This document shows, piece by piece, positions 4,053 to 42,948 of a stretch of DNA of 52,238 nucleotides (position 1 is the first letter of the stretch; each line of letters begins with the position of its first letter). A program made the translations under genes and the position numbers. The stretch is from an uncultured Anaerolineales bacterium (GTDB lineage Bacteria; Planctomycetota; Phycisphaerae; FEN-1346). The notes under the pieces are model-generated. The model was given only the letters and a program-made list of their open reading frames with translations, was not told the DNA's origin and did no database searches. The DNA lies in the NCBI GenBank assembly GCA_964437855.1, contig CAYTJE010000001.1, forward strand, positions 1-52,238, read 5' to 3'.

Positions 4053-4235
4053 CGGCTCAGTATCGCCTCCTTGAGGGGTTATCGGCTCGTTTCGGCGCTG
4101 TTCTCAATGGTATAGCGCCGGCGGCGCGGGGTCAATGCGGGGAGGCGGGAGGGGTGCCCTTCGAGCCGCGTGTGTAAGCACGCGGGTTCGCACAATCGGT
4201 GGCGCATGTATCGCACGCGAGTATCGCGCCGCCAA

Positions 4236-4270
4236 TCGAGCATACCCGCGACCTCACGGTCGCGGCTCGA
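4236..4270. repeat. REP-like hairpin, family E (TCGAGC..CGCGACC-TCAC-GGTCGCG-GCTCGA)
   Basis: The 28-nt string CCCGCGACCTCACGGTCGCGGCTCGAAA (4245-4272) is identical to 42135-42162 inside mtaB. It lies immediately downstream of the stop of the 4276-5712 gene. Confidence 0.75.
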
Positions 4271-4275
4271 AAACC

Positions 4276-5819: not shown

Positions 5820-8042
5820 TCACGGCGCGCCCCCCGTCTCCTCCAGCATCCGCCAGATATGGATCGCGGCCGCCACCGACCACGCCTGGGCGATGCACCC
5901 GCCGGGTGCGTGCGGCGGGTCGCCGTCGTACACCTCGCCAATCTGGCCCAGACACGCCTCGTCCATGGCATCCACGAGCCCAGAGAGGATCTGCCCCGCC
6001 TCGCCCCGGGCACACTCGCGGCACTCGACGGCGAAGACGGCGTCGACGTACGGCCCCAGGAGCCACGGCCAGGCGGTGCCCTGGTGGTAGGCGGCGTCGC
6101 GCTCGTCCGGGCCGCCGCGGTACACCCCTTTATACGAGGGATGGGCCGGGTCGAGCGTCCTGAGGCCGCGGGGCGTCAGGAGCCGCTCGCGGACCGTCCG
6201 GACGACGGCCTTCGCGCGCTCGCCCCGCAGCGGCGCGTGCGGCAGGCCGACCGCGAAGATCTGGTTCGGCCGGATCGCGGGGTCGGGGGTGCCACCCGGC
6301 GCGATGCAATCGTACAGACACCCCGCGGCCTCGTTCCAGAAGAGGGCCTCGAAGGCGTCGCGGGCGGACGCGCGAAGGCCGCACGCCTCGGGCGCCTCGA
6401 CGCCGAGCGTCTCGGCCATCTCCTCCACGAGGGCGAGGCCCGAGAGCCAGAGGGCCTGGACCTCGACCGCCTTCCCGTGGCGGGGCGTGACGGGCCGACC
6501 GTCGGACGTGCGGGCGTCCATCCACGTCAGTTGCGTGTGCTCGTCACCGGCCAGGACGAGACTGTCGGCGTCGGCATGGATGCCGAACCGCGTGCCCTCG
6601 GCGCAGCGGCGGACGATGTCGCAGGCGACGGGCCAGAGCGAGGCGCGGGCGTGGTCGGCCCAGCCGGGGTCGTGGGGCACTTCCTGCTCGCCGCACCACG
6701 TCACGTACGCCGCCAGGGCCTGGAGGAACCAGAGGCCGGCGTCGACGGTGTTGTAGGCGGGCTCGCCGTCCTCCTCACCGAAGGAGTTGGGGATGAGACC
6801 ATCGGCAGCGGCGGCGGCGAACGCCTCCAGGACCATGGCGGCCTCCGCGGGCCGCCCGACCTCGATCGCCAGGCCCGGCAGGGCGATCATGGCATCGCGG
6901 CCCCAGTCGGCGAACCACGGGTAGCCGGCGATGACGGTCCGCAGGTCCTTGCCCGCGGCGCGGCGGCAGACGAGGAAGGCGTCGGCGGCGCGGCGGAGGG
7001 CGGAAACGGGATCGGTCGCGCTATCGGAGGGGCCGGAGCGGAGGGGGATATCCCGCCGCTCCCGCGGCGGGCTCGAAGGCATGGCGCGCGGCGGGCTCGG
7101 AGACGGCGGGTCGAAGACACAGAACAGGCGGCAGTCGCCGGGGCCGGAACCGCGGACGGTCCATCGGCCGGGCGCGAGGAGGTCCTGCGTGAAGTCAAAC
7201 CCGCGCTCCCGCTCGACGCGGACCTGGACGCCCTCGTACCACGTGGGCTCGCCGCCGGCCTCGACGGAAACATCCCCCTCGCTGTCATCCTGAGGCCCGC
7301 AGGGCCGAAGGATCTCGCCTTGGTCGTTCGCCGGCGCGCCGTTCTCACGGCGAGGTTCTTCGTCGCGGCTTCGCCGCTCCTCAGAATGACAGCCTTCCGG
7401 GACATCCGCCCACACGAACACGCCCGGCAGGCCCTCCGTCAGGACCCGCCAGCCGGGGGCGTCCTGGAGAAGTTCCGCGCGGAAGCGGTCGTGCTTGTGG
7501 CCCAGATGGTGCATCGACCGCAGGGCGAGCATCGGGGCCAGGTCGAGCGTCCAGTCGCCGTCGGCCTGGACCTCATAGGTGATGCATACGCCCGCCGCAT
7601 CCGGCAGCAGGTGGACCTCACGGGTCACCGTCGGCCCGGCGGCGCGGGAGACGAGGGCCACCCCGCTTGCGCGGCGGGTCTCCGCACCCGCCGCGTGGTC
7701 AACCAGACCGCCTATCCTGCGCGGTGGCTCCGCAGACCCACCGCGCGGCACATTATGGAACTCGAAGGCCACCGCCGAGCCGTCGGGATGAAAGCCGCCT
7801 GAGTACTCGGTGGTGGAGAGCCAGGCCTCGCCGTCGGCGGTCGCGAGCCGCTCGTCGATGTGCGAGAGGACGACGTGCCGCCCCAGCGGCGGCCGCAGCG
7901 CCGGCACCCACAGGCCGTGATACCGGCGCGTCGGACACAGGAGCACCGTGGAGGAGGCGTAGCCGCCGCCGCCGTCGGCCAGGAGCCACTCGGTGGCCAG
8001 GGCGCGGTCGAGGTCTCGCAGGTCGTCGGCGCGGCGGTGCAT
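5820..8042 (-). CDS. Amylo-alpha-1,6-glucosidase / glycogen debranching enzyme (bacterial-archaeal GDE type)
   Basis: N-domain GGGGYASSTVLLCPTRRYHGLW and C-domain GYPWFADWGRDAMIALPGL, with a long alpha/alpha-toroid-like tail. Start set at ATG 8042 (MHRRADDL...), because the ORF part upstream of it overlaps a repeat. Confidence 0.85.
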   Translation of the reverse strand: MHRRADDLRDLDRALATEWLLADGGGGYASSTVLLCPTRRYHGLWVPALRPPLGRHVVLSHIDERLATADGEAWLSTTEYSGGFHPDGSAVAFEFHNVPRGGSAEPPRRIGGLVDHAAGAETRRASGVALVSRAAGPTVTREVHLLPDAAGVCITYEVQADGDWTLDLAPMLALRSMHHLGHKHDRFRAELLQDAPGWRVLTEGLPGVFVWADVPEGCHSEERRSRDEEPRRENGAPANDQGEILRPCGPQDDSEGDVSVEAGGEPTWYEGVQVRVERERGFDFTQDLLAPGRWTVRGSGPGDCRLFCVFDPPSPSPPRAMPSSPPRERRDIPLRSGPSDSATDPVSALRRAADAFLVCRRAAGKDLRTVIAGYPWFADWGRDAMIALPGLAIEVGRPAEAAMVLEAFAAAAADGLIPNSFGEEDGEPAYNTVDAGLWFLQALAAYVTWCGEQEVPHDPGWADHARASLWPVACDIVRRCAEGTRFGIHADADSLVLAGDEHTQLTWMDARTSDGRPVTPRHGKAVEVQALWLSGLALVEEMAETLGVEAPEACGLRASARDAFEALFWNEAAGCLYDCIAPGGTPDPAIRPNQIFAVGLPHAPLRGERAKAVVRTVRERLLTPRGLRTLDPAHPSYKGVYRGGPDERDAAYHQGTAWPWLLGPYVDAVFAVECRECARGEAGQILSGLVDAMDEACLGQIGEVYDGDPPHAPGGCIAQAWSVAAAIHIWRMLEETGGAP
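7285..7391. repeat. Family B MITE-like element embedded in frame in the debranching-enzyme CDS
   Basis: GTCATCCTGAGGCCCGCAGGGCCGAAGGATCTCGCC ... GGCGAGGTTCTTCGTCGCGGCTTCGCCGCTCCTCAGAATGAC. It is translated as GCHSEERRSRDEEPRRENGAPANDQGEILRPCGPQDDS. Confidence 0.7.
7669..7746. repeat. REP doublet (family A) embedded in frame in the debranching-enzyme CDS
   Basis: Two hairpins: CGCGGCGGGT-CTCCGC-ACCCGCCGCG and GCGCGGTGG-N9-CCCACCGCGC. The span is 78 nt, or 26 codons. It is translated as ..VPRGGSAEPPRRIGGLVDHAAGAETRR.. Confidence 0.7.
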
Positions 8043-8110
8043 GGGGCGCTCCGAACGGACGAACCGCAACCTTACGGTTGCGGCTCGGGCGAAGCAAGTA
8101 TAAAAGGCCC

Positions 8111-8326: not shown

Positions 8327-8419
8327 GACTGTTCGCGCGGTGGGCCGGGAGACCCACCGCGCGGAATGGCTGCGACTGTTCGCGCGGTGGGCCGGGAGAC
8401 CCACCGCGCGGAATGGCTG
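8326..8419. repeat. Tandem duplication (2 x 47 bp) of a family A REP hairpin
   Basis: CGACTGTTCGCGCGGTGGGCCGGGAGACCCACCGCGCGGAATGGCTG occurs twice, identical and head to tail. Each unit contains the stem CGCGCGGTGGG / CCCACCGCGCG. Confidence 0.9.
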
Positions 8420-22201: not shown

Positions 22202-22257
22202 CCGCCCAGCGCGACCTCGCCGTGGCCGCGCGGGGCTCAAGACAGAAAGGAGACCCG

Positions 22258-23976
22258 ATGAACCGCCGCCAGTTTCTGCGAACCGCCGGTCTCGGAGCCG
22301 CCGCCTTCCTCACCGGGTGCCGGGCCGCCGCCCGTGCAGCCGCCCCGGCCAAGCGGCCGAACATCATCCTCATCATGTCCGACGACATGGGGTACTCGGA
22401 CCTCGGGTGCTACGGGGGCGAGATTGAGACGCCCACCCTCAATTCGCTAGCGGCCAAGGGCGTCCGCTTCACCCAGTTCTACAACACGGCCCGGTGCTGC
22501 CCCACGCGGGCCAGCCTGATGACCGGCCTGTACCAGCACCAGGCGGCCGTCGGCCACATGATGGGCGACCGCAACCTGCCGGGCTACCGCGGCGACCTGA
22601 GCCGGAATGCCGTCACCATTGCCGAGGCCGTCAAGCCCGCCGGCTACGCCGCCTACATGTCCGGCAAGTGGCACGTGACGCCCCACACCCGCCCGGACGG
22701 CCCCAAGCACAACTGGCCGCGGGCGCGCGGGTTCGACCGTTTCTTCGGCACCATCCACGGGGCGGGGTCGTTCTACGACCCGAACAGCCTGACCCGCGAC
22801 AACACCCAGATTCCGCCCGGCAAGGACTTCTATTACACCGATGCCATCAGCGACAATGCCGCCGGCTACATCCGCGACCACAGGAAGCAGAAACCCGACG
22901 CGCCCTTCTTCATGTACGTGGCCTATACGGCCGCCCACTGGCCGATGCACGCCCGGCCGGAAGACATCGCCCGCTACAAAGGCCGGTACGACGCGGGCTG
23001 GCAGGAGATCCGCCAGGCCCGGTACAAACGGATGCGCCGGATGGGCCTCCTGAAGGAGCCGTGGGACCTCTCGCCCCGCGACGCCAAACGCTGGGAACAG
23101 GTCTCGGAGGCAGACAAAAAGTGGCACGCCCGCCGCATGGAAGTCTACGCCGCCATGGTCACCGTCATGGACTCTGGGCTAGGCCGCATCGTCCAGGCCC
23201 TGAAGGAGACCGGCCAGTACGAGAACACGCTCATCCTCTTCCTCGAGGACAACGGCGGGTGCGCCGAGGAGTTCGGCAGCCGCGGCAAGCCGCGCAACCA
23301 CGCCAAAAACCTCAAGAAGGCCGAACCGATGGCCCCGGACGCCCTCCAGACCCACATGGTGCCGCCCGTCACGCGCGACGGCCGCCCCGTGCGCGTGGGT
23401 CACGGCGTAATGCCCGGCCCGGCCGACACGTACATCGCCTACGGCAAGGAGTGGGCGAACGTCTCGAACACCCCCTTCCGCCTGTACAAGCACTGGGTGC
23501 ACGAGGGCGGCACCGCCACGCCGCTCATCGCCCACTGGCCCGCCGGCATCCCGACGGACCGGCACGGGGCGATGGAGCGGCAGCCCGGCCACCTCATCGA
23601 CATCATGGCCACCTGCGTCGACCTCGCCGGCGCCGACTATCCCGAAACGTTCAAGGGGAACCGGATCACGCCGATGCAGGGCGTGAGCCTGGCCCCAGCG
23701 TTCCTCGGCAAAGACGTGGGCCGCGACGAGCCCATCTACTTCGAGCACGAGGGCAACCGCGCCATCCGCGACGGCAAGTGGAAACTCGTCGCCAAGGGCG
23801 CGGGCGGACCGTGGGAACTGTACGACATGGAGGCCGACCGCAGCGAACTCCACGACCTGGCCGGGAAGCACCCCGACCGCGTCCAGGCGATGGCCGAGCG
23901 GTGGGAGGCCTTCGCCCGCCAGGCCCACATGATCCCCTGGCCCTGGAAAGGCAAGTACCGACGCAAGAAGGGATAA
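22258..23976 (+). CDS. Sulfatase 3 (arylsulfatase-like, Cys-type, Tat signal)
   Basis: MNRRQFLRTAGLGAAAFL, MSDDMGYSD and CCPTRASLMTG. GAAAGGAG RBS at 22245-22252. Confidence 0.9.
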   Translation: MNRRQFLRTAGLGAAAFLTGCRAAARAAAPAKRPNIILIMSDDMGYSDLGCYGGEIETPTLNSLAAKGVRFTQFYNTARCCPTRASLMTGLYQHQAAVGHMMGDRNLPGYRGDLSRNAVTIAEAVKPAGYAAYMSGKWHVTPHTRPDGPKHNWPRARGFDRFFGTIHGAGSFYDPNSLTRDNTQIPPGKDFYYTDAISDNAAGYIRDHRKQKPDAPFFMYVAYTAAHWPMHARPEDIARYKGRYDAGWQEIRQARYKRMRRMGLLKEPWDLSPRDAKRWEQVSEADKKWHARRMEVYAAMVTVMDSGLGRIVQALKETGQYENTLILFLEDNGGCAEEFGSRGKPRNHAKNLKKAEPMAPDALQTHMVPPVTRDGRPVRVGHGVMPGPADTYIAYGKEWANVSNTPFRLYKHWVHEGGTATPLIAHWPAGIPTDRHGAMERQPGHLIDIMATCVDLAGADYPETFKGNRITPMQGVSLAPAFLGKDVGRDEPIYFEHEGNRAIRDGKWKLVAKGAGGPWELYDMEADRSELHDLAGKHPDRVQAMAERWEAFARQAHMIPWPWKGKYRRKKG

Positions 23977-23996
23977 GCGGGCCCCGCCCGTCGGCC

Positions 23997-24105
23997 GAGT
24001 CCCGACCGAGCCGGTCGCGGAAGCGGCCGGTTATCGCCTCCCGTCGTGGTCCGAGCCGCCGCGACTAACCCCGCCCCGCCGCTGCCGCGTCGGGCTGAGC
24101 ACGGA
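23997..24105 (+). repeat. Sulfatase-leader element, divergent copy c4
   Basis: Hairpins CCGGTCGC-GGAA-GCGGCCGG and CCCGCCGC-TGCC-GCGTCGGG, with a core ..CCCGTCGTGGTCCGAG. It ends 14 nt before the sulfatase 4 ATG. Confidence 0.5.
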
Positions 24106-24118
24106 GAAAGGCCCTCTT

Positions 24119-25618
24119 ATGAACCGCCGCACGTTTCTGCACTCGGCCGGCCTGGGGGCCGTGGGCCTGGCCCGGGCCGCCACCGCCATGGAGCGGGCCC
24201 CCAGCGCCGCTCGCTCGCGCTCGCGGCTAGCAGAGACAAACCGGGTCGCGACCGCCCCCCGAGCCGCGACCCTAAGGGAGCGGCCCAACATCCTCCTCAT
24301 CCTCCCCGACGACCAGACCTGGCGAGACAACGGCTGTTACGGCCACCCGGACGTCCGCACGCCGAACATCGACCGCCTGGCCGAGGCGGGCATGCGGTTT
24401 ACCCACTGCTTTACCGCGACGGCCATGTGCGCCCCCACCCGCCAGCAACTCTACACGGGCCTCTTTCCCGTCCGAAACGGCGCCTACCCGAACCACAGCC
24501 GCGTCTACGGCGGGACCCGGAGCATGGTCCACCACCTGAAGGCCCTGGGGTACCGGGTGGGCATCGCCGGGAAACACCACTTCGGCCCGCGCGACTCGTT
24601 CCCCTTTGAGAACCTCAAGCCCAAGGACGTGCCGGCGTTCATCGGCCGCAAGCCGGACGAGCCGTTCTGCCTCATCGTCTGCTCGCACAGCCCGCACCTG
24701 CCGTGGAAGGCCGGCGACGCCTCCGCCTACGACCCGGACGCCCTCACCCTGCCGCCCTACCTGGTGGATACGCCCGAGACGCGCGAGGCCCTCACGAAGT
24801 ACTACGCCGAGATCACGGACTTCGACCGCGAGGTGGGCGAGTGCATGCGGCACGTGCGTGAGGCCGGCGCCGAGAAGGACACGATCTTCATCTACACGAG
24901 CGAGCAGGGCGCCCAGTTCCCGCACGGCAAATGGACGTGTTACGACGTGGGCCTGCGCACCGCCCTGGTGGTCCGCTGGCCCCGTCGCGTCAAACCGGGC
25001 ACCACCACCGACGCCCTGGTCCAGTACGTGGACGTGGTGCCGACGCTGATCGAGGCGGCCGGCGGCGACCCGGCCCGGATCGACACCGGCTGCCCGGACG
25101 CCCGGGGCGAGACCGGCTTCGACGGCCGCAGTTTCCTCGGCGTCCTCCTCGGCCGGGCCGACACGCACCGCGACGCCGTCTACGGCGCCCACACCACGCG
25201 GGGCATCATCGCCGGGTCCGACTGTTACCCCATCCGCTCGGTCCGCACCCGGCGGTACAAGTATATCCGCAACCTGAACCACGAGTCGGCGTTCCACAAC
25301 GTCCTGATCCAGCGGGAGAAGTCCTACTGGCCGTCGTGGCAGGAGAAGGCCAAGACCGACCCCAAGGCCGCCTACCTGGTCCGGATGTACGAGCACCGGC
25401 CGGCCGAGGAACTCTACGACCTGCGGGCGGACCCGTGGGAACTGGAGAACCTGGCCGATGAGCCCGCCCTGGCCCGGGTCAAGGCCGACCTCCGCAAACG
25501 CCTGGACGCCTGGATGGCCCAGCAGGGTGATAAGGGCAACGCCACCGAGATGCAGGCCCGCCAGCGCCAGGGCCGCGGCAAGAAGAAGAAACGGGCCAAG
25601 GCCAAACCGGACGCCTGA
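24119..25618 (+). CDS. Sulfatase 4 (Cys-type, Tat signal; heparan/N-sulfoglucosamine-sulfatase-like)
   Basis: MNRRTFLHSAGLGAVGLA, LPDDQ and CAPTRQQLYTGL. The spacer between the signal and the mature domain is unusually long. Confidence 0.9.
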   Translation: MNRRTFLHSAGLGAVGLARAATAMERAPSAARSRSRLAETNRVATAPRAATLRERPNILLILPDDQTWRDNGCYGHPDVRTPNIDRLAEAGMRFTHCFTATAMCAPTRQQLYTGLFPVRNGAYPNHSRVYGGTRSMVHHLKALGYRVGIAGKHHFGPRDSFPFENLKPKDVPAFIGRKPDEPFCLIVCSHSPHLPWKAGDASAYDPDALTLPPYLVDTPETREALTKYYAEITDFDREVGECMRHVREAGAEKDTIFIYTSEQGAQFPHGKWTCYDVGLRTALVVRWPRRVKPGTTTDALVQYVDVVPTLIEAAGGDPARIDTGCPDARGETGFDGRSFLGVLLGRADTHRDAVYGAHTTRGIIAGSDCYPIRSVRTRRYKYIRNLNHESAFHNVLIQREKSYWPSWQEKAKTDPKAAYLVRMYEHRPAEELYDLRADPWELENLADEPALARVKADLRKRLDAWMAQQGDKGNATEMQARQRQGRGKKKKRAKAKPDA

Positions 25619-31755: not shown

Positions 31756-34329
31756 ATGTTCCGACCCACGCGACGTGAGTTTCTGAAGGCCGCAGCCGCC
31801 GGTGCGGCCGTCTCGGTCGCCCCGCACCTCGTCCGCCGTGCAGCCGGCGCCGTCACCAATCCGAAGGAACGGCCGAACATCCTCTGGCTGAGTGCCGAGG
31901 ACCTCAGCCCCACCCTGGGCTGCTACGGCGACTCTTGCGCCGACACGCCGAATCTCGACAAGTTTGCCGCCCAGGGCGTCCGCTACGACAACGCCTTCAC
32001 CCACGCGCCCGTGTGCGCCCCCGCGCGCAGTGGCATCATCACGGGGATGTACCACACGACGATCGGCACCTCGTGGATGCGATGCAGCGGCGTGCCGCCC
32101 GTCGAGGCCCGTTGCTTCCCCGAGTATCTGCGGGCGTACGGGTACTACTGTACGAACAACTCGAAGACCGATTACCAGTTCTCGCCCCCGCCCACGGCGT
32201 GGGACGAGTCGAGCCGGAAGGCCCACTGGCGCAAGCGCCCACGGAAGGACCAGCCGTTCTTCGCCGTCTTCAACTTCACCGTCACACACGAGTCGAGCAC
32301 CCGGCGGTGGAAGGAGGGCCAGCAGCAACACGACCCCGCCAAGGCCCCCGTCCCGCCGTACTACCCGGACACGCCCGTCGTCCGGCAGAACATCGCGTGC
32401 TACTACGACAAAGTGTCGCAACTGGATGGCCAGATCGCCGACCGCCTGAAGGAACTGGAGCAGGCGGGCCTCGCCGACGACACCATCGTCTTCTTCTGGG
32501 GCGACCACGGGTGGGGGCTGACGCGCGGCAAGCGGTGGGTGTACGATTCCGGCATCCGCGTGCCGCTCATGGTCCGCGTGCCGGAGAAGTGGCGCCGGTG
32601 GGCGGAGGCGGGCGTCGTCGGTTCGGTGGCCCCGGGGACGGTGGCGACGGAGTTTGCGCGGTTCCTGGACTTCGCCCCCACGGTCCTCAGCCTGGCGGGG
32701 GGGCTGATTCCCGACCACATGCAGGGCCGGGCCTTCCTGGGGCCGCAGAAAGGCAAGGAGCCCGCTTACGTCTACGCCGCCCGCGACCGCATGGACGAAA
32801 CGTACGACTGCATCCGCGCCCTCCGAGACAAAAAGTACAAGTATATCCGGAACTTTATGCCATACCTGCCCCGCGGCCAGATCATCAACTACATGGACCA
32901 GACGCCCATCCTGAAGGAGATGCGGCGGCTGCACGACGCGGGCAAACTCAAAGACGGTCCCCAGATGCAGTTCTTCGAACCCACCAAGCCCGTCCACGAA
33001 CTCTACGACATCACCCGCGACCCGCACGAGGTCCACAACCTGGCCGGCGACCCGAAGCACCAAAAAACCGTCGAGCGCATGGAGGCGGCCCTGTTTGCCA
33101 AGATGAAGGCCATCGGCGACGTCGGCCTCATCCCCGAGTGCGAGTTCGACCAGATGAAGGGTTCCGGCCGGACCGACCCGCCCGTCTTCACCGTCACCGG
33201 CGGCGGAAACGGCAAGGCCCAGATGGTCCGCCTGACGTGCCCGACGCCCGGTGCCTCCATCACCTACCAGGTCAGCGAGCCCCCCGAAGCCGGGGGCGGC
33301 ACGGTCCTTCTGCCCGCCGCCAAGGCCCGCATCCACGGCAACGGGGCCAAGAAGAGCGGCGACCACATCAGCCACTGGCGCGGCAAGGACACCTACGTGG
33401 CCTGGAAGGCGAAGGTGCCGGCCGCCGGCCGCATGCCCGTCTGGATCGCCCAGGCCAATGCCGGCGAGAGCGGATCCGAATACGAACTCGCCATCGGCGA
33501 CGCCAAACTCACCGGCCGCATCCAGCACACCAATGGCTGGGAGACATGGAAATGGGTCCGCGTGGGCGAGGTCACGCTCGAAAAGGGCGGCACGGTCGAG
33601 GTCCGCCTCACGCCCACGAAGCAGGTCCAGGGGCGGCTGGGGAACGTTCGGGCCGTCGCCATCGGCGGCGAGAAGCCCCCCGAGACCGCGCGGGGGGCGG
33701 CCTGGCTCCTCTACCACGAGCCCATCGAGGTCGCCCCGGGCGAGCGGGTCCAGGCCAAGGCCGCACGCCTCGGCTACGCCGCGAGCGCCACCGCAACGTT
33801 TACCTACGGTGACGCGGGCGAGCCGCCCGCCAAGCCGAAGCCCGATGAGACGCCGTGGCGGAAGAAGATTGACGAGAGCGGGATGATCGACCGGATTCTC
33901 GCCCTCAAGGCCTACGACGGCCGGTGGACCGAGGGAGAGCAGGCGTACCTGGCGGCCCTGGCCGACCCCACCGGCCCCGTCCGTTACTGGGCCGTGGTGG
34001 GGCTGCACCAGGCGTATGCGGACGGCCCGCCGCCGCGCAAGATCCTGGAGAAGGTCCGGGCGCTCCTCGCGGACGAGGCGCCGTCGGCGCCCATCGCCGC
34101 CGCCCACGCCCTGGTGGCCTGGGGTGAAACGGAGGCGGGCCTCGCGCGCCTGGTCGAGGCTCTGAAGGCACCGGGCGAGAAGACGCGGCTCCTCGCGGGC
34201 CACGTGCTGGAAGTCCTCGGCCCAAAGGCCAAACCCGCCGCCGCCGAAATCGAGAAGGCCGCCAACGGCCAGGGCGGCTACCCCGGCCGACTCCTCCCGC
34301 GCGTCGTCAAGGCGCTGAAGGAGGCGTAA
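31756..34329 (+). CDS. Sulfatase 5 (Cys-type, Tat signal) with a long C-terminal extension (Fn3-associated/CBM-like modules and HEAT-like repeats)
   Basis: RREFLKAAAAGAAV, SAEDLS and CAPARSGIITGM. The C-terminal half has TCPTPGASITYQV, a WETWKWVRVGEV beta-sandwich-like segment, and VRYWAVVGL/AAAHALVAWGE helical repeats. Confidence 0.85.
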   Translation: MFRPTRREFLKAAAAGAAVSVAPHLVRRAAGAVTNPKERPNILWLSAEDLSPTLGCYGDSCADTPNLDKFAAQGVRYDNAFTHAPVCAPARSGIITGMYHTTIGTSWMRCSGVPPVEARCFPEYLRAYGYYCTNNSKTDYQFSPPPTAWDESSRKAHWRKRPRKDQPFFAVFNFTVTHESSTRRWKEGQQQHDPAKAPVPPYYPDTPVVRQNIACYYDKVSQLDGQIADRLKELEQAGLADDTIVFFWGDHGWGLTRGKRWVYDSGIRVPLMVRVPEKWRRWAEAGVVGSVAPGTVATEFARFLDFAPTVLSLAGGLIPDHMQGRAFLGPQKGKEPAYVYAARDRMDETYDCIRALRDKKYKYIRNFMPYLPRGQIINYMDQTPILKEMRRLHDAGKLKDGPQMQFFEPTKPVHELYDITRDPHEVHNLAGDPKHQKTVERMEAALFAKMKAIGDVGLIPECEFDQMKGSGRTDPPVFTVTGGGNGKAQMVRLTCPTPGASITYQVSEPPEAGGGTVLLPAAKARIHGNGAKKSGDHISHWRGKDTYVAWKAKVPAAGRMPVWIAQANAGESGSEYELAIGDAKLTGRIQHTNGWETWKWVRVGEVTLEKGGTVEVRLTPTKQVQGRLGNVRAVAIGGEKPPETARGAAWLLYHEPIEVAPGERVQAKAARLGYAASATATFTYGDAGEPPAKPKPDETPWRKKIDESGMIDRILALKAYDGRWTEGEQAYLAALADPTGPVRYWAVVGLHQAYADGPPPRKILEKVRALLADEAPSAPIAAAHALVAWGETEAGLARLVEALKAPGEKTRLLAGHVLEVLGPKAKPAAAEIEKAANGQGGYPGRLLPRVVKALKEA

Positions 34330-34404
34330 CAGAAACGTATAGCACGGTGGGTCTCCGCACCCGCCGCGCAAGGTTTGTCATTCCGACCGAGCCGGCGCAT
34401 GCTC

Positions 34405-34518
34405 GTCGTTCGATCCCGCCGCGGGAGCGGCGGGTCATCACCATCCGCCGTGGTCGACAACCAAGGCAGACGCCGATGTCCGGCTGCTTCCGCAGCCGGC
34501 TCGAACGGCAAACAGGCA
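34405..34518 (+). repeat. Sulfatase-leader element copy c1 (114 nt, structured, inverted termini)
   Basis: GTCGTTCGATCC-[CCCGCCGC GGGA GCGGCGGG]-TCATCACCATCCGCCGTGGTCGAC...[CCGGCTGC TTCC GCAGCCGG]-CTCGAACGGCAAACAGGCA. It ends 25 nt before ATG 34544. Confidence 0.75.
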
Positions 34519-34543
34519 CCCCGCACAGCACGAAAGGACCGCC

Positions 34544-36145
34544 ATGAACCGTCGCAGGTTTCTCGAGACCGCCGGCCTCGGCGCCGCTGCCGTCGCCGGG
34601 GCGACCCTCGGGCCGCTCGCACGCCCGTCTTGCGCCGGCGAACCGGCAAGCGCTTCCGGCGGCGCGGGCGACCAGCGCCCCAACATCCTCCTCATCATGG
34701 CCGACGACGTGGGCTACGCGGACATCGGCTGTTACGGGTCGGAGATCCGAACGCCCACCCTCGACGGCCTCGCCCGCCGGGGTATCCGGTTCACCCAGTT
34801 CTACAACATGGCCAAGTGCAACCCGACCCGCTCGACGCTGCTGACGGGCCTGTACTTCCGCAAACGTCATGCGGAGAACGCCCGCTCGCTCGGCACGCTG
34901 ATGCGGCAGGCGGGCTACTACGCCGCCACCAGCGGAAAGGAACATTTTGACGGCTGGGTGCCGAAGCACTGCTACGCCACCGAGTCGTTCGACGACGCCT
35001 TCACCTTCTACGCCTGCACGCAGTACTTCATTCCGCCGGGGTGGGACTTCACCCGCCCGTTCCAACTGAACGGCGAGGTGCTCAGGCCCGAGGCGATTCC
35101 CGTCTCGCGCAAACCGTTCTACAAAACGGACGTCATCACCGACTACGCCCTGCGGTTCCTCGATAAGGCGGAGGCGGCCGAGAAGCCCTTCTTTCTGTAC
35201 CTGCCGTACCACGTGGCCCATTACCCGCTCCAGGCGCGGCCGGAAGACATCAAGAAATATCGCGGCCGCTACCGGAAAGGGTGGGATGCCGTCCGGGCCG
35301 AGCGGTTCGCCCGGCAGAAGAAACTGGGCGTCCTGCCGCCGAACACGACACTCTCCGAGCCGGAGGATAACATCTACCCCCACCGCGGCGACGATGAGTG
35401 GTCCTCCTACACCCCGTGGGACGAGGTACCCGAGAGCAAGAAAGGCCGCCTCGACCTGGAGATGGCCGTCTTCGCCGCCATGATCGACCGGATGGACCGG
35501 AACATCGCCCGGGTCCTGGCGAAGATCGAGGCCATGGGCCGGGCGGAGAACACCCTCGTCCTGTTCCTCGTCGACAACGGGTCGTGCCCGTTCGACAACG
35601 GCGGCAAGCGTGACGCCAACGCCCCGCTCGGCAGCGCGGGCTCGTACGCGTTCCTGCGGCCGGCGTGGGCGTGCGTCGGCAACACACCGTGGCGGTACTA
35701 CAAGCAGTACGGGCACGAGGGCGGCCCGCATACGCCCTTCATCGGCCACTGGCCGGGCGTCATCGAACCGGGCATCACGCACCAGGTGGGGCACGTGGCG
35801 GACATCGTGCCCACGCTCCTGGAGGCGGCGGGCACCTCGTATCCGCAGGAGGCCGACGGCAAGCCGACCCCCGCGCTGGACGGGTCGAGCCTGATGCCGA
35901 TCTTCCGCGGCGGGGCGCGGCCGCAGCCGGAGATCCTCGTCTCCGGCTGGAAAAACGCCAGGCGGATGGTCCGCGTGGGCGACTGGAAGATCGTCTGCGT
36001 CAAAAACCGCCCGTGGGAACTCTATCGGATGGACGCCGACCCCGCCGAGACAAACAACCTGGCCGATGCGCGGCCGGAGAAGGTCAAGGAGATCGTCGCG
36101 CAATACCAAGCGTGGCTCGAGGCGAACGACGCCAGGCCGACGTGA
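34544..36145 (+). CDS. Sulfatase 6 (arylsulfatase-like, Cys-type, Tat signal)
   Basis: MNRRRFLETAGLGAAAVAGATLGPLARP, MADDVGYAD and CNPTRSTLLTGL. Confidence 0.9.
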   Translation: MNRRRFLETAGLGAAAVAGATLGPLARPSCAGEPASASGGAGDQRPNILLIMADDVGYADIGCYGSEIRTPTLDGLARRGIRFTQFYNMAKCNPTRSTLLTGLYFRKRHAENARSLGTLMRQAGYYAATSGKEHFDGWVPKHCYATESFDDAFTFYACTQYFIPPGWDFTRPFQLNGEVLRPEAIPVSRKPFYKTDVITDYALRFLDKAEAAEKPFFLYLPYHVAHYPLQARPEDIKKYRGRYRKGWDAVRAERFARQKKLGVLPPNTTLSEPEDNIYPHRGDDEWSSYTPWDEVPESKKGRLDLEMAVFAAMIDRMDRNIARVLAKIEAMGRAENTLVLFLVDNGSCPFDNGGKRDANAPLGSAGSYAFLRPAWACVGNTPWRYYKQYGHEGGPHTPFIGHWPGVIEPGITHQVGHVADIVPTLLEAAGTSYPQEADGKPTPALDGSSLMPIFRGGARPQPEILVSGWKNARRMVRVGDWKIVCVKNRPWELYRMDADPAETNNLADARPEKVKEIVAQYQAWLEANDARPT

Positions 36146-36155
36146 AGCGCCAAGT

Positions 36156-36269
36156 GTCGTTCGAACCCGCCGCGGGAGCGGCGGGTCATCACCATCCGGC
36201 GTGGTCGATGACCTCGGTAGAGGCGGATGACCGGCTGCTCCCGCAGCCGGCTCGAACGGCAAACAGGCA
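36156..36269 (+). repeat. Sulfatase-leader element copy c2 (114 nt)
   Basis: Same length and ends as c1. There are about 12 mismatches by eye, mostly in the central 28 nt. It ends 27 nt before ATG 36297. Confidence 0.75.
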
Positions 36270-36296
36270 TCCCACGTGCAACCTGAAAGGAGCGCC

Positions 36297-37856
36297 ATGA
36301 ACCGCCGCACGTTTCTCGAAACGGCCGGCCTCGCCGCCGCCGCCGGGGCGACCCTCGGGCCGCTCGTCCGCCCGGCCCGCGCCGCCGGAGGCAAGAAGGA
36401 CGACCGGCCCAACATCCTCCTCATCATGGCCGACGACATGGGCTTCTCCGACGTCGGCTGCTACGGCGGGGAGGTCCGCACGCCGCACATCAACGGCCTG
36501 GCCCGCCGCGGCATCCGCTTTACCCAGTGCTACAACAACGCCAAGTGCGGGCCCACGCGGGCGTCGCTCCTGACGGGGCTGTACGACCAGCAGGTCGGTA
36601 CCCGGCCACTGAAGCACTGCGTGACCCTGGCCGAGGTCCTGAAGGCCGCCGGCTACCGGACCCTGATGACCGGCAAGTGGCACCAGAGCGAGATTCCCGT
36701 CCATCGCGGCTTCGACCGCTACTTCGGCCTGGCCGACGGGTGCTGCAACTTCTGGAACCCCGGCCGAGAGCGCGAGGGCGAGCCGCCCCCCGGCCGCAAG
36801 TGGAAACGCTGGCGGCGATGGGCCATCGACGACCAGGTCTTCCAGCCGTACACGCCCGAGGACCGCGACTTCTACACCACCGACGCCTTCACGGACTACG
36901 CCCTTAAGTATCTCGACCGGTACGGCAAAGAGGACCGCCCCATCTTCCTGTACCTGGCGTACACGGCCCCGCACTATCCGCTGCACGCCTGGCCGGACGA
37001 CATCGCCCGCTACCGCGACACGTACACGGTGGGGTGGGACGAAATCCGCCGACGCCGCTGGAAGCGGCAGGTGGCGATGGGCCTGACTGCCGACCACTGG
37101 GACCCCTCGCCGCGCGACCCCTCCGTCACCCCGTGGGACGAGGCGAAGGGCAAGGACGAATGGGCCCTGAAGATGGCCGTCTACGCCGCCATGATCGACC
37201 GCATGGATCAGAACATCGGCCGCGTGCTCGCCAAGTTCCGTGACCTCGGGCGCCTGGAGAACACGCTCGTCCTCTTCCTCTCGGACAACGGCGGATGCGC
37301 CGAGAACGTGAACAAGACGCCGGAGGTGCCACCCGGCCCACTGCCCTCGTACCGGACGGTCGATAAGCCGTGGGCGAACGCCTCGAACACACCGTTCCGC
37401 AAGTACAAATCGTGGGACCACGAGGGCGGCATCTGCATGCCCTTCGTCGTCTCCTGGCCGCGCGTCGTCACCGACGGCGGCCGCATCGACCGCCGCGTCG
37501 GCCACATCATCGACGTGATGGCCACCGTCTGCGACGTGGCGGGGGCCGAGTATCCGTCGGAATATGACGGCCACAAGGTCCTGCCCCTGGAGGGCAAGTC
37601 GCTCCGGCCGCTCATCGAGGGCAAGGACCGCGAGGGACACGAGGCCCTGTACTGGCAGTTCGGTGGCTCCAAGGCCGTCCGGGCCGGCCAATGGAAACTC
37701 GTCAAACACGGCAAGGCCGACTGGGAACTGTACGACATGGAAGCCGACCGCTGCGAACTTCGCGACCTCGCAACGCAGCACCCCGACCGCGTCGAACGGA
37801 TGGCCGGGATGTGGGACGACTGGCGCCGGCGCTGCGCCCGCGATTACAAGGGCTGA
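36297..37856 (+). CDS. Sulfatase 7 (arylsulfatase-like, Cys-type, Tat signal; tandem paralog of sulfatase 6)
   Basis: MNRRTFLETAGLAAAAGATLGPLVRP, MADDMGFSD and CGPTRASLLTGL. GAAAGGAG RBS at 36285-36292. Confidence 0.9.
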   Translation: MNRRTFLETAGLAAAAGATLGPLVRPARAAGGKKDDRPNILLIMADDMGFSDVGCYGGEVRTPHINGLARRGIRFTQCYNNAKCGPTRASLLTGLYDQQVGTRPLKHCVTLAEVLKAAGYRTLMTGKWHQSEIPVHRGFDRYFGLADGCCNFWNPGREREGEPPPGRKWKRWRRWAIDDQVFQPYTPEDRDFYTTDAFTDYALKYLDRYGKEDRPIFLYLAYTAPHYPLHAWPDDIARYRDTYTVGWDEIRRRRWKRQVAMGLTADHWDPSPRDPSVTPWDEAKGKDEWALKMAVYAAMIDRMDQNIGRVLAKFRDLGRLENTLVLFLSDNGGCAENVNKTPEVPPGPLPSYRTVDKPWANASNTPFRKYKSWDHEGGICMPFVVSWPRVVTDGGRIDRRVGHIIDVMATVCDVAGAEYPSEYDGHKVLPLEGKSLRPLIEGKDREGHEALYWQFGGSKAVRAGQWKLVKHGKADWELYDMEADRCELRDLATQHPDRVERMAGMWDDWRRRCARDYKG

Positions 37857-41425: not shown

Positions 41426-41491
41426 CCTGCGTGGCCGTTCGAGCCGCCGGCCGGTTCGAAGCAGCGATGGGCAGGAAGCGGTGTATCTCCG

Positions 41492-42865
41492 ATGGCCGAC
41501 CCGTTCCGCACCTTCAAGGTGATCTCGTTCGGCTGCAAGGTCAATCAGACCGAGGGGTGGGCCCTGGCCGAGCGCCTTCGCGGTCTGGGCCTGCGCGAGG
41601 TCGGCCGCCGCGCCCGCGCCGACCTGGTCATCGTCAACACCTGCTGCGTGACGGCCGAGGCCGCCCGCCAGGGCCGACAGCGCGTCCGCCGGGCCCTTCG
41701 CCGTGACGCCGGCGTCGCGGTCACCGGCTGCGACGCGCACCCTGCGGCCGAGGACGCGGCGCTCGGCCAGATCGAAGACCTCCTGGCCCTGGAGGCCGAC
41801 AAGACCCGCCTCCTCGCCCGCCTCACGGACACGGGCCGGCTGCCGGAGGAGGCCGAGGGCGCCACCCGGAGCGGGCCGGAAGGCGAACCGGCGTCCCAGC
41901 CGCGGAGCCGGGCCTTGCTCAAGGTCCAGGACGGCTGCCCCGGCGGCTGCACGTACTGCATCGTGCCCAGGGTCCGGCCCCGCGTCCGCTCGTTGCCGCC
42001 AGAGGAGGCCGTCCGGACAGCCGAGCGCCTGGTCGCGGAGGGGTTTCGCGAGATCGTCCTCTGCGGCATCCACCTGGGGCTGTACGGCTGCGATCTCGCA
42101 CCGTTGTCGAGCCCCGACCGTAAGGTTGGGGGTGCCCGCGACCTCACGGTCGCGGCTCGAAAGGCAGGCGCGCCCGGCCTCGCCGACCTCCTTGCGCGCC
42201 TCCTGGCAATCGACGGCCTGGGCCGGGTGCGCCTGTCGAGCATCCTGCCCACAGAGGTGGGCGGCTCGCTGCTGGCGCTGATGGCGGCGGAGCCGGACCG
42301 CCTCTGCCCCCACCTGCACCTCCCGCTCCAGTCGGGCGACGACGAGGTCCTTTCGCGCATGGGTCGGCCGTACACGTCGGCCGATTTCCTGGGGGCCGTC
42401 GAGCGGGTCCGCGGGACGCTCGACGCGCCGGCCATCACCACCGACGTCCTGGTGGGCTTCCCCGGCGAGACGGACGCCGCGCTGGAGCGGACCCTCGCCG
42501 TGTGCCGGGAGGCCCGGTTCTCGCGGATGCACGTCTTCGGGTTCTCGCCCCGCCCGGGGACAGGGGCGGCCGAGGGGCCCGACCCCGTCCCCGGCGAGGC
42601 GAAGCGGGCGCGAGTCCGGCGGGCGGCGGCGCTCGGCGAGGAACTGGCCGAGGCCTACCGCCGCTGGCTCGTGGGCCGACGCGAGCAGGTGGCCGTCGAG
42701 ACGGTCCACCGCGACGGCGCCGCCGAGGGCCTGGCGGCACGCTACGTCCGGGTCCGGGTTCGCGGCCCTTTGCCGGAAGGCGCCGGCCGGCGGGACCTCG
42801 TGCCCGTGCGGCTCAAGGGCGCCGACGGCGAGGCGCTCGCGGCCCAACTCGAGCCGCAAACGTGA
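41492..42865 (+). CDS. mtaB: tRNA methylthiotransferase, MtaB/MiaB family (radical SAM)
   Basis: UPF0004 N-domain (KVISFGCKVNQTE, VIVNTCCVT), radical SAM LKVQDGCPGGCTYC, and a TRAM-like C-terminus. Confidence 0.85.
   Translation: MADPFRTFKVISFGCKVNQTEGWALAERLRGLGLREVGRRARADLVIVNTCCVTAEAARQGRQRVRRALRRDAGVAVTGCDAHPAAEDAALGQIEDLLALEADKTRLLARLTDTGRLPEEAEGATRSGPEGEPASQPRSRALLKVQDGCPGGCTYCIVPRVRPRVRSLPPEEAVRTAERLVAEGFREIVLCGIHLGLYGCDLAPLSSPDRKVGGARDLTVAARKAGAPGLADLLARLLAIDGLGRVRLSSILPTEVGGSLLALMAAEPDRLCPHLHLPLQSGDDEVLSRMGRPYTSADFLGAVERVRGTLDAPAITTDVLVGFPGETDAALERTLAVCREARFSRMHVFGFSPRPGTGAAEGPDPVPGEAKRARVRRAAALGEELAEAYRRWLVGRREQVAVETVHRDGAAEGLAARYVRVRVRGPLPEGAGRRDLVPVRLKGADGEALAAQLEPQT
42107..42160. 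repeat. Family E palindromic element (54 nt = 18 codons) in frame in mtaB
   Basis: The arms TCGAGCCCCGACCGT and ACGGTCGCGGCTCGA have one mismatch. It contains the 28-nt string that is identical to 4245-4272. Confidence 0.7.
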
Positions 42866-42948
42866 GTTCGCGATATCCGGCGGCGCAGCGCGTTCGTCGC
42901 CCGCCAAGGCGCGTACTCCCCTTCGACGGCGCCTCGCGGCTTACTACT

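What the first reader, a model, noticed from the sequence alone, without database searches (positions are those of the whole stretch)
42107..42160. 54-nt palindromic element in frame in mtaB, with an identical 28-nt core downstream of an unrelated gene
The string CCCGCGACCTCACGGTCGCGGCTCGAAA occurs identically at 42135-42162, inside the mtaB CDS, and at 4245-4272, just after the stop of the 4276-5712 gene. In mtaB it is part of a 15-bp-arm inverted repeat spanning 18 codons, translated as ..SSPDRKVGGARDLTVAARK... That places it between the radical SAM core GIHLGLYG and LADLLARL, where B. subtilis MtaB, as I recall it, has only about 10 residues. A related motif (GGTCGCGACC..GAGCCGCGACCCTAAGG) appears at 24243-24277.
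Basis: partly seen in the sequence, partly recalled or inferred. Interest (0 to 1): 0.65.

Follow-up and report, generated by a model that had tools for sequence, protein, structure and literature searches.

The report
Palindromic repeat inserted inside mtaB gene
A small mobile palindromic DNA repeat (REP type) has landed in frame inside the tRNA-modification gene mtaB of an uncultured Phycisphaerae bacterium and adds about 22 amino acids to a loop; this kind of event is known from other bacteria, so it is a tidy new example and not a new kind of element.

Summary
The 28-mer occurs exactly twice (4245-4272 and 42135-42162; 0 expected by chance). The mtaB copy is an in-frame pair of inverted hairpin units.

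The pair belongs to a dispersed REP/REPIN-like family. Its layout is TTCGAGCC-stem-GNRA-stem-GGGTAC, then a variable centre, then GTAC-CCGCGACC-TYAC-GGTCGCGG-CTCGAA. An exact-core scan found it in 87 stretches of genome DNA, mostly Phycisphaerae and Planctomycetota MAGs.

Window 4160-4272 is a full copy. The mtaB copy (42107-42162) lacks the centre.

The unit matches the REP-like hairpins that Quentin et al. 2018 list next to class 3 HuH-Y1 transposase genes (Legionella, Solibacter, Planctomyces).

Most MtaB orthologues lack the insert. Two (75% and 73% identical) carry the same insert with the right hairpin intact. The closest relative (P0004) has an empty site.

Of 119 measurable MtaB homologues, 24 carry inserts in this loop. 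Several are unrelated palindromic elements.

The same family sits in frame in ubiE (twice), lnt, a Wzy_C gene, and in the window's GDE and sulfatase genes. It also supplies the mtaB stop codon.

No transposase was found in the DNA I could fetch. Intragenic REP dimers are already described (Rickettsia RPEs; Di Nocera 2013).

Verdict: a real feature, a new member of a known kind, of moderate interest.

The parts
41492..42865 (+). mtaB CDS (457 aa; UPF0004 and Radical_SAM domains), the host gene.
   Evidence: ORF listed. Pfam PF00919 and PF04055. Homologues are named MtaB by their sources. The AF2 model (pLDDT 91) is closest to B. subtilis MtaB, MiaB and RimO. All six cluster cysteines are invariant in the alignment.
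42107..42135 (+). Left REP unit of the intragenic pair. Foot TCGAG; stem CCCCGACC (42112-42119); GNRA loop GTAA (42120-42123); stem GGTTGGGG (42124-42131); head GTGC (42132-42135, consensus GTAC, shared with the right unit).
   Evidence: Sequence. The unit finder reports it. The same subfamily (left arm CCCCGACC with a TCAC right loop) occurs in L025, L048, L008, L044 and L080.
42135..42162 (+). Right REP unit, which is the 28-mer. Stem CCGCGACC (42136-42143); loop TCAC; stem GGTCGCGG (42148-42155); tail CTCGAA (42156-42161).
   Evidence: Exact duplicate of 4245-4272. The stem and tail are intact in the orthologous copies L088 and L093.
42162..42178 (+). Tail AGGCAGGCGCGCCCGGC, translated KAGAPG. 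It probably arrived with the element, which would bring the insert to about 66 nt (22 codons).
   Evidence: Many copies continue MRGCG after CTCGAA. L030 has CAGCGCAAGCCGGCGCGCCCGGC, translated AQAGAPG. The extent is inferred, not shown.
4160..4272 (+). Full-length REPIN-like element (113 nt) with a left unit, a central hairpin and a right unit. It lies between the stop of gene 4276-5712 (-) and hflX 2754-4052 (-).
   Evidence: DNA fold z = -5.0 (+) and -4.4 (-). The hflX assignment rests on Pfam.
42848..42873 (-). REP unit overlapping the 3' end of mtaB. CTCGAGCCGCAAAC-GTGA-GTTCGCGA encodes the last residues LEPQT. The TGA stop (42863-42865) lies in the GTGA loop.
   Evidence: Relatives P0002, P0003 and P0005 end in ...SEPRS, which is consistent with the same unit.
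41438..41460 (+). Possible remnant, TTCGAGCCGCCGGCCGGTTCGAA, in the 66-nt spacer upstream of the mtaB start.
   Evidence: This is weak evidence and could be chance.
24260..24283 (+). Canonical class-3-type REP unit CGAGCCGCGACC-CTAA-GGGAGCGG. It is in frame (PRAATLRER) in the linker between the signal peptide and the sulfatase domain of ORF 24119-25618. Weaker unit-like matches lie at 24173-24196 (+) and 24207-24230 (-).
   Evidence: One search gives 0 mismatches. It agrees at 24 of 26 positions with the L. pneumophila unit in the Quentin 2018 supplement. The Pfam sulfatase domain starts at aa 56. This paralogue has 159 nt from ATG to the RPNILLI motif against 93-129 nt in its paralogues.
7052..7077 (+). 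REP unit CCCGCCGC-TCCC-GCGGCGGG-CTCGAA. It is in frame (PSSPPRERRD on the - strand) in the linker between the GDE_N and GDE_C domains of ORF 5820-8183 (-).
8064..8087 (-). REP unit CGAGCCGCAACC-GTAA-GGTTGCGG, just upstream of the likely true start (ATG at 8042) of the GDE gene.
34409..34505 (+). REPIN of the same architecture with different stems (CCCGCCGC and CCGGCTGC), upstream of sulfatase gene 34544.
   Evidence: (families D15, D16).
36160..36256 (+). REPIN, 90% identical to the one at 34409, upstream of sulfatase gene 36297.
   Evidence: (D16).

Best explanation
The 54-nt palindrome is a head-to-head pair of REP units, a REPIN that has lost its central spacer. It belongs to a dispersed, non-autonomous palindromic repeat family of Phycisphaerae and Planctomycetota.

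The unit is foot NCGAG, an 8-bp stem, a GNRA loop (or its complement), an 8-bp stem, and head GTAC. It is the same type of hairpin that flanks class 3 HuH-Y1 (TnpAY1, RAYT-like) transposase genes in Planctomycetes, Acidobacteria and Legionella.

Inferred mechanism: such a transposase, acting in trans on single-stranded hairpin DNA, copied the element into mtaB.

The insertion survived for three reasons. Its length is a multiple of three. The frame used has no stop, and only the frame that reads TAA or TGA in the GNRA loop is closed. It also lies in a beta-alpha loop of the radical-SAM barrel that tolerates extra residues.

The centre was probably lost by deletion between the two GTAC heads.

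The insert is most likely a tolerated passenger that is now translated as about 22 extra loop residues. It is probably not an adaptation of MtaB.

Shown here: family membership, the in-frame position, absence from most orthologues, sharing with two orthologues, and recurrence in other genes.

Inferred: the transposase, the single-strand mechanism, the centre deletion and the neutrality.
For: - Exact duplicate, 0 expected by chance.
- The exact core occurs in 87 stretches of genome DNA. About 50 of them come from one MAG, BS750m-G62.
- The flanks show a common architecture of two inverted units around a 35-55-nt centre.
- The left hairpin covaries. 91% of cells are paired against 66% in shuffles, with 88 double-change cells against 29, and 0 of 500 shuffles reach this. 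Slid controls pair at 36-48%.
- The supplement of Quentin 2018 lists CCGAGCCGCGACCGTAAGGGAGCGGA and relatives beside class 3 TnpAY1 genes. Window 24260-24283 is that unit.
- Orthologues: 81 of 119 have the canonical loop. P0004 has an empty site. P0002 and P0049 carry the same insert.
- GC3 of the insert is 0.70 against 0.93 for the rest of the gene (P = 0.002).
- In the AF2 model the insert has pLDDT 67-70, forming a coil plus a short helix between strand 187-192 and helix 230-238.
- Other in-frame copies: ubiE in L021 and L063, both at Pfam profile position 46/47; lnt linker in L086; a Wzy_C protein in L030; the window's GDE and sulfatase genes.
- Intragenic REP dimers encoding 20-30 aa are documented in PMC3733652.
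Against: - No Y1 or RAYT gene was found in about 740 kb of fetched DNA. This covered tblastn with a recalled E. coli RAYT, Pfam scans of 10 genes lying between inverted units, and motif scans. The mobilising enzyme is therefore inferred from the literature alone.
- The classical GT[AG]G foot is absent.
- The published class 3 units have a mismatched stem (GACC against GGGA). The mtaB unit has a perfect stem.
- The three insert-bearing orthologues fall in three different subclades of a rough NJ tree, each next to empty-site relatives. A single ancient gain would need several precise losses. The alternative is repeated gains at the same site.
- The right unit is better conserved than the rest of the gene: 90% nucleotide identity and 90% at third positions, against 77-80% and 63-67% elsewhere. 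A purely neutral passenger does not predict this. The sample is only 10 codons, however.
Confidence: 0.75

Rival explanations
1. It is a classical MITE. A DDE-type transposase recognises the terminal inverted repeats TTCGAGCC and GGCTCGAA and mobilises a roughly 110-nt element by cut-and-paste, perhaps into TCGA targets. The hairpins would be incidental.
For: The termini are perfect 8-nt inverted repeats. The size of 95-115 nt is typical of a MITE. The palindromic TCGA at both ends could be a target duplication. No Y1 transposase was found.
Against: The internal units covary to keep hairpins while their sequence changes, as expected for structure-recognising Y1 enzymes. Single units and centre-less pairs occur on their own. 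The same unit is published as flanking class 3 Y1 genes. No IS with these ends appeared in the fetched loci, and no duplication beyond TCGA is visible.
Confidence: 0.1
2. The right hairpin inside mtaB is kept by selection at the nucleotide level. It could act as an mRNA structure that slows translation or sets mRNA stability. It could also be a protein-binding site, or its peptide RDLTVAARKAG could have become a useful helix. On this reading the element has been co-opted.
For: The 8-bp stem and the tail GCTCGAA are intact in three orthologues that are 73-78% identical in protein. The left unit has decayed in one of them. Third positions are 90% identical against 63-67% elsewhere. The rare codons GCT and CGA are retained in a gene with GC3 of 0.93. 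AF2 predicts a helix at 215-224.
Against: Only 10 codons and three non-independent comparisons support this; P is about 0.09 for one pair by a hand binomial calculation. Gene conversion from the many genomic copies, or recent independent insertions, would give the same picture. Most orthologues function without the insert. The closest relatives carry quite different elements at the site.
Confidence: 0.12
3. It is not an insertion. It is an ancestral loop of this MtaB clade that resembles the repeat by chance, or an assembly chimera.
For: Three orthologues share the loop at the same position.
Against: A 28/28 match has 0 chance expectation. The loop DNA has the full two-unit architecture of the family, down to a subfamily-specific left stem. 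81 of 119 homologues lack it. A second assembly confirms the sequence. The codon composition is atypical.
Confidence: 0.02
4. It is a solitary CRISPR-like repeat: a 28-nt unit with a hairpin followed by an 8-nt handle-like tail, acting as an orphan repeat or a regulatory RNA.
For: The length (28 nt), the hairpin and the ...CUCGAAA tail resemble type I-F repeats. This resemblance is from memory only.
Against: None of the 87 stretches of genome DNA has a regularly spaced array. Copies occur as inverted pairs around a structured centre. The units are palindromic partners of each other. No cas genes are present in the window.
Confidence: 0.01

Closest known systems
REP-like hairpins associated with class 3 TnpAY1 (HuH-Y1) genes (Quentin et al. 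2018, BMC Genomics 19:475, PMC6006769, Additional file 2)
   Same: The foot, 5' arm and loop are nearly the same: C-n-G-A-G, CCGCGACC, then GTAA or GTGA. Window 24260-24283 matches the L. pneumophila unit at 24 of 26 positions. The P. limnophilus unit begins ACGAGCC like many copies here. Copy number is high (about 600 in S. usitatus according to the paper). The taxa listed there are Planctomycetes, Acidobacteria and Proteobacteria.
   Different: The published units have an 'atypical' stem with two mismatches (GACC against GGGA). The mtaB and 4160 units have a perfect 8-bp stem with covarying variants. The regular head-to-head dimers with a structured centre, and the in-frame intragenic copies, are not described there. 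Adjacency to a class 3 tnpA gene could not be checked here.
REPINs and RAYTs (Bertels and Rainey 2011, PMC3116915); GTAG- and CGTC-tagged REPs, including intragenic REP dimers (Di Nocera et al. 2013, PMC3733652)
   Same: Short hairpin units lie in inverted pairs that fold into one long hairpin. They are mostly placed just after stop codons. Some supply stop codons. Some dimers lie inside ORFs and encode 20-30 aa. In Opitutus terrae the dimer partners are separated by only 1-2 bp.
   Different: The head is GTAC (variants GTCC, GTGA, ATAC), not GTAG or CGTC. The host lineage is uncultured Phycisphaerae. The same protein loop is occupied by several unrelated element families across the phylum.
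Rickettsia palindromic elements (RPE; Ogata et al. 2000 and 2002, as cited in PMC3733652)
   Same: Palindromic repeats are inserted in frame in housekeeping genes. They are translated as extra surface segments, and the host protein is presumed to remain functional.
   Different: RPE-1 is longer (100-150 nt; figure from memory). The host is an obligate intracellular alphaproteobacterium. The families were not compared here by sequence.
Bacterial MITEs (Correia/NEMIS, ERIC, Nezha; review PMC10969869)
   Same: They are non-autonomous, about 100 nt long, have terminal inverted repeats, and can fold as RNA or DNA hairpins.
   Different: MITEs are defined by a parental IS with the same ends and by target duplications. 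Neither was seen here.

Membership tests
REP / REPIN | Short (20-40 nt) imperfect palindrome whose structure rather than sequence is conserved | tested here: met
   The unit has an 8-bp stem and a 4-nt loop. On 52 left units, 91% of cells pair against 66% in shuffles. Six of 8 pairs show double changes, and 0 of 500 shuffles reach the observed score.
REP / REPIN | Many dispersed copies, mostly extragenic | tested here: met
   87 stretches of genome DNA carry the exact core, about 50 of them from one MAG. 198 generalised units were found in 690 kb of fetched DNA. Only about 5 of 98 exact-core copies lie in supported coding frames.
REP / REPIN | [quoted passage not shown] | tested here: met
   One search shows 95-116-nt dimers and centre-less forms of 50-58 nt. 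Fold z-scores range from -2.8 to -5.0.
REP / REPIN | Conserved GT[AG]G tetranucleotide at the foot | tested here: not met
   The head is GTAC, with variants GTCC, GTGA, ATAC and GCAC. The other end is NCGAG.
REP / REPIN | A single-copy RAYT gene flanked by the units in the same genome | not testable with these tools
   Whole MAGs cannot be scanned. Nothing was found in the fetched pieces.
Class 3 TnpAY1-associated REP-like structures (Quentin 2018) | 5' foot CnGA followed by a hairpin of the CCGCGACC-GTRA-GGNNGCGG type | tested here: met
   Window 24260-24283 matches with 0 mismatches the pattern taken from the published units. The mtaB and 4160 units share the foot, the 5' arm and the loop. 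Their 3' arm is fully complementary instead of mismatched.
Class 3 TnpAY1-associated REP-like structures (Quentin 2018) | Units flank a class 3 tnpA gene (HuH motif NHVH, Y motif YV..EQ) | tested here: inconclusive
   A motif scan of all six frames of about 740 kb gave 0 hits. The genomes are only sampled around repeat copies.
MITE | Terminal inverted repeats | tested here: met
   TTCGAGCC and GGCTCGAA at the two ends.
MITE | Target-site duplication, and a parental IS with the same ends | tested here: inconclusive
   No flanking direct repeat beyond the palindromic TCGA is visible. No IS was seen. No sufficiently close pair of filled and empty sites is available, since the best relative is 75% identical in protein.
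Rickettsia palindromic elements (RPE) | In-frame insertion in conserved ORFs that stay intact | tested here: met
   mtaB, ubiE (twice), lnt, a Wzy_C protein, GDE and sulfatase all keep their Pfam domains on both sides of the insert. This shows that it works like an RPE. Sequence relatedness to RPEs was not tested.
CRISPR repeat | Regularly spaced direct repeats with unique spacers | tested here: not met
   Copies are single or in inverted pairs. The few same-strand pairs are duplicated whole elements.
MtaB (host protein) | UPF0004 N-domain with three Cys, a radical-SAM CxxxCxxC motif, and a fold like MtaB, MiaB and RimO | tested here: met
   Pfam domains. C15, C51, C80, C149, C153 and C156 are invariant. 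Foldseek gives 9a6d_A (MtaB) at E = 6e-42 and MiaB 7mjz at 7e-35.

The most novel reading that the evidence does not exclude
The beta-alpha loop after GIHLGLYG in planctomycetal MtaB may be a recurrent landing site. About one homologue in five carries an insert there. Several of the inserts are unrelated palindromic elements: four read at the DNA level, plus others suggested by their peptides. Close relatives show three different occupancy states.

One hairpin of the REP pair is kept intact at the nucleotide level in three diverged lineages. This would mean one of two things. Either insertion is targeted, for example at a DNA or replication feature of the site, or at earlier elements that act as landing pads. 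Or the hairpins inside the CDS are maintained by selection or by gene conversion.

If so, mtaB would be a natural system for asking whether REP hairpins inside genes are functional.
Probability: 0.15. Interest if true: 0.65.

Novelty: new member of a known kind. Interest (0 to 1): 0.4.

Why it matters
The result adds uncultured Phycisphaerae to the short list of lineages (Rickettsia, Opitutus, some Proteobacteria) in which palindromic mobile repeats are translated as parts of housekeeping proteins.

It also ties this repeat to the poorly studied class 3 HuH-Y1 transposase group.

There are practical consequences:
- Such inserts inflate and blur protein alignments.
- They create apparent lineage-specific loops.
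- They donate stop codons.
- They seed spurious ORFs in high-GC MAGs.

The many independent inserts in one MtaB loop map a permissive site in a radical-SAM methylthiotransferase. They also offer a comparative set for testing how long REP hairpins persist inside coding DNA.

Tried and rejected
- Rfam. The whole window at gathering threshold gave 0 hits. The full element at E <= 10 gave only far sub-threshold matches to long-hairpin miRNA models. It is not a known RNA family.
- tRNA or tmRNA. None in the window. The TTCGA motifs lie in stems, not in T-loops.
- CRISPR-like solitary repeat. Rejected because there are no arrays.
- Peptide census. A protein-database search with the element's translation failed. 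The query must be at least 40 aa. A doubled 52-aa profile gave one hit at E = 6, because short peptides cannot reach significance against 5.8 billion sequences.
- Transposase hunt. I tried tblastn with an E. coli RAYT sequence recalled from memory (best E = 0.19, not a transposase), ORFs between inverted units, Pfam on 10 genes lying between inverted units (all ordinary metabolic or regulatory genes, two with no Pfam match), and HuH/Y motif scans. None found a transposase.
- Viral contigs. 0 matches.
- RNA-seq runs. None could be listed, so retention of the insert in mRNA is untested.
- Hits in other phyla. The exact-core hits in Opitutaceae, Proteobacteria and Actinomycetota MAGs are single perfect hairpins with different flanks, one followed by a T-run like a terminator. 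I do not count them as family members. The 'Anaerolineales' label on several MAGs that carry true copies was not verified.
- Dating the insertion. A rough NJ tree leaves open whether there was one gain with several losses or repeated gains.
Full report
**Observation.** The 28-mer CCCGCGACCTCACGGTCGCGGCTCGAAA is present exactly twice, at 4245-4272 and 42135-42162 on the + strand. No further match appears with up to three mismatches, and none was seen in 100 shuffles.

The second copy lies in ORF 41492-42865 (+), 457 aa. That ORF carries the UPF0004 and Radical_SAM domains. Its homologues are named MtaB by their sources. Its model (pLDDT 91) is closest to B. subtilis MtaB, MiaB and RimO.

Position 42107 opens codon 206 and 42160 closes codon 223, so the 54 nt are 18 whole codons, SSPDRKVGGARDLTVAAR. 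The outer 15-nt arms pair at 14 of 15 positions.

A Logan contig of a microbial-mat metagenome run (3205 nt, depth 9.7) covers 41700-42600 without a single difference. Other contigs of that run and of a sediment run match only 42108-42165, which means they are other copies of the repeat. An assembly artefact is therefore unlikely.

**What the repeat is.** A scan of one genome per species with CCGCGACCNNNNGGTCGCGGCTCGAA returned 87 stretches of DNA, each with at least one exact match. About 50 came from one Black Sea Planctomycetota MAG (BS750m-G62). Others came from several Phycisphaerae MAGs and from MAGs labelled Anaerolineales.

The flanks show that the 28-mer is the right end of a larger element. 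Its layout is:
- (T)TCGAGCC, a 6-nt variable stem, a GNRA loop, the complementary stem, GGGTAC;
- a centre of 35-55 nt that itself forms a hairpin;
- GTAC, CCGCGACC, TYAC or TTCC, GGTCGCGG, CTCGAA, often followed by MRGCG.

This amounts to two hairpin units in inverted, head-to-head orientation, which is the REPIN layout.

On 52 left units chosen only for the CGAGCC foot, the stem covaries strongly. 91% of cells are paired against 66% in shuffles. There are 88 double-change cells against 29, and 0 of 500 shuffles reach that. Slid controls pair at 36-48%. The hairpin, not its sequence, is what is kept.

Window 4160-4272 is a full 113-nt copy. It sits 3 nt after the stop of the minus-strand gene 4276-5712 and upstream of hflX.

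With a generalised unit definition, the window also holds:
- REPINs at 34409-34505 and 36160-36256;
- a unit at 8064-8087;
- a unit at 7052-7077;
- a unit at 42848-42873.

**The mtaB copy.** It consists of left unit TCGAG-CCCCGACC-GTAA-GGTTGGGG-GTGC, directly joined to right unit CCGCGACC-TCAC-GGTCGCGG-CTCGAA.

The left stem CCCCGACC/GGTCGGGG combined with a TCAC right loop is a subfamily seen as 107-108-nt elements in L025, L048, L008, L044 and L080. The mtaB copy equals such an element with the centre removed between the two GTAC heads. That deletion is an inference. Centre-less pairs of 50-58 nt also exist elsewhere, in L081, L026, L005 and L024.

The third-position GC content of the 20 insert codons is 0.70, against 0.93 for the rest of the gene (P = 0.002). 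This fits a non-coding origin.

**Comparison with orthologues.** In 119 measurable homologues, the distance from the GIHLGLYG-type motif to RLRLSS is 23 residues in 81 of them. The window protein has 45.

The closest relative in a rough tree, P0004 (locus L089), has an empty site: GADLPRRVPLHDLL.

P0002 (75% identical, L088) and P0049 (73%, L093) carry the same insert at the same place and in the same frame. In both, the right unit keeps its perfect stem and the GCTCGAA tail. The loops are TCCC and TTCC, both common variants in the family. The left unit is mutated in L088 and unrecognisable in L093.

The right unit is 90% identical in nucleotides and at third positions, against 77-80% and 63-67% for the rest of the gene. 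This rests on only 10 codons.

The three insert-bearing proteins lie in three subclades, each next to empty-site relatives. I cannot decide between one old gain with several clean losses and repeated gains.

Bacteroides MiaB (7mjv) aligns with 17 gap positions across this stretch. In the model, the insert is a coil plus a short helix (215-224) with pLDDT 67-70, lying between strand 187-192 and helix 230-238.

**A crowded loop.** 24 of the 119 homologues have at least 8 extra residues in this loop. Where I could read the DNA, the inserts are other palindromic elements:
- GTCATTCCGACCGAGG...CTCGGAATGAC in L090 and L092;
- two copies of GAAACGACCCCWGGGGTCGTTTC in L094;
- other hairpins in L096.

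L091 (P0003) combines half of the GTCATTCC element with a full copy of the present family.

Three close relatives (P0002, P0003, P0005) thus show three different states at one site. Earlier elements may serve as landing pads for later ones. Alternatively, this loop may simply be one of the few places where inserts survive.

A second variable region lies in the linker before the radical-SAM domain.

**Other genes.** The family is in frame in several other genes, and Pfam domains are intact on both sides in each:
- ubiE of two different MAGs (L021, L063), in opposite orientations, both at Pfam profile position 46/47;
- the linker between the LNT_N and CN_hydrolase domains of lnt (L086);
- a Wzy_C membrane protein, as a full 107-nt copy (L030);
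- in the window, the GDE_N/GDE_C linker of ORF 5820-8183 (7052-7077, PSSPPRERRD);
- in the window, the linker after the signal peptide of sulfatase 24119-25618 (24260-24283).

The unit at 42848-42873 encodes the last five residues of MtaB, and its GTGA loop contains the TGA stop.

Only the frame that reads TAA or TGA in the GNRA loop is closed, so two of three frames on either strand tolerate the pair.

**Link to known systems.** Rfam has nothing.

Di Nocera et al. 2013 (PMC3733652) describe REP families in more than 80 species, including Planctomycetes. They report REPs that supply stop codons, and intragenic REP dimers encoding 20-30 aa, most numerous in Opitutus terrae and Rickettsia conorii.

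Quentin et al. 2018 (PMC6006769) define class 3 TnpAY1 proteins, found mainly in Planctomycetes, Acidobacteria and Proteobacteria. [quoted passage not shown]

Their supplementary table lists these units:
- CCGAGCCGCGACCGTAAGGGAGCGGA (Legionella);
- CGGAGCCGCGACCGTAAGGGAGCGTCC (Solibacter);
- CACGAGCCGGAAGCGTGAGCGACGGGT (Planctomyces limnophilus).

Window 24260-24283, CGAGCCGCGACCCTAAGGGAGCGG, is that unit. The mtaB units share the foot, the 5' arm and the loop, but have a perfect 3' arm.

The family is therefore best filed as a Phycisphaerae branch of the class 3-type REPs. The likely mobilising enzyme is a class 3 HuH-Y1 transposase acting on single-stranded hairpins.

That last step is inferred. 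I found no such gene in about 740 kb of fetched DNA, and whole MAGs cannot be scanned with these tools.

**Verdict.** It is an in-frame REP pair, tolerated in a permissive loop of MtaB, and one of many such events in this lineage.

The phenomenon and the repeat type are both published. What is new is the lineage, the regular dimer architecture, and the repeated occupation of a single MtaB loop by unrelated elements.

The conservation of the right hairpin and the patchy distribution of the insert remain unexplained. They are the only parts that could lead somewhere less ordinary.

Noticed in passing
window 7269-7391 (- strand), inside ORF 5820-8183; also near 5796, 657 and 34377: A second, unrelated palindromic element (GTCATTCTGAGG...CCTCAGGATGAC) is in frame in the GDE_N region of the glycogen-debranching-like gene, read as CHSEERRSRDEEP...QDDSEGDV. 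Pfam splits GDE_N into two stretches. The same family fills the MtaB loop in L090 and L092.
   Followed up: partly
window 8334-8410: A third palindrome, CGCGCGGTGGGCCGGGAGACCCACCGCGCG, occurs as a tandem pair 47 nt apart (I1). It overlaps long ORFs on both strands. Its family and coding status were not examined.
   Followed up: no
window 19266-25618 and 31756-37856: A cluster of at least seven paralogous sulfatase genes with MNRR..FL signal peptides, typical of Planctomycetota (families D1-D14). Two of them are preceded by 90%-identical REPINs that were evidently duplicated together with the genes (D16).
   Followed up: partly
MtaB alignment A1, columns about 150-215 (proteins P0006, P0007, P0008, P0012, P0015, P0017): The linker between the UPF0004 and radical-SAM domains is a second insertion-rich region. 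Its peptides look repeat-derived: VIPTEASRREAERRNL...EIPRLAALARDD in P0006 and HTGGQAASGTPPTPGHERSEWPGRRCQAP in P0008 and P0012. The corresponding part of the window protein is the only segment with pLDDT below 50.
   Followed up: no
L060 about 2200-2450 (- strand ORF 2005-4092): An alcohol-dehydrogenase-like gene carries a tandem in-frame duplication, PGDAARGGCGDPPRGKVPLD(M/V)PRPAL, which looks like yet another repeat family.
   Followed up: no
L007 about 7728 (-) and L091 663-887: These are composite elements in which half of the GTCATTTCGACCGAGG family is fused to a full copy of the TTCGAGCC family. This suggests that one palindromic element inserts into another.
   Followed up: partly
L012, L028, L084, L075 (Opitutaceae and Verrucomicrobia), L042 (Proteobacteria), L043 (Acidobacteriota), L069 (Actinomycetota): The exact core also occurs in other phyla, but as single perfect hairpins with different flanks. 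L042 is followed by a T-run like a terminator. L012, L028 and L084 are one orthologous locus. Whether these belong to the class 3 REP type or arose by convergence is open.
   Followed up: partly
window 41438-41460: The short palindrome TTCGAGCCGCCGGCCGGTTCGAA lies in the spacer just upstream of the mtaB start. It may be the worn-down ends of an element, or chance.
   Followed up: no
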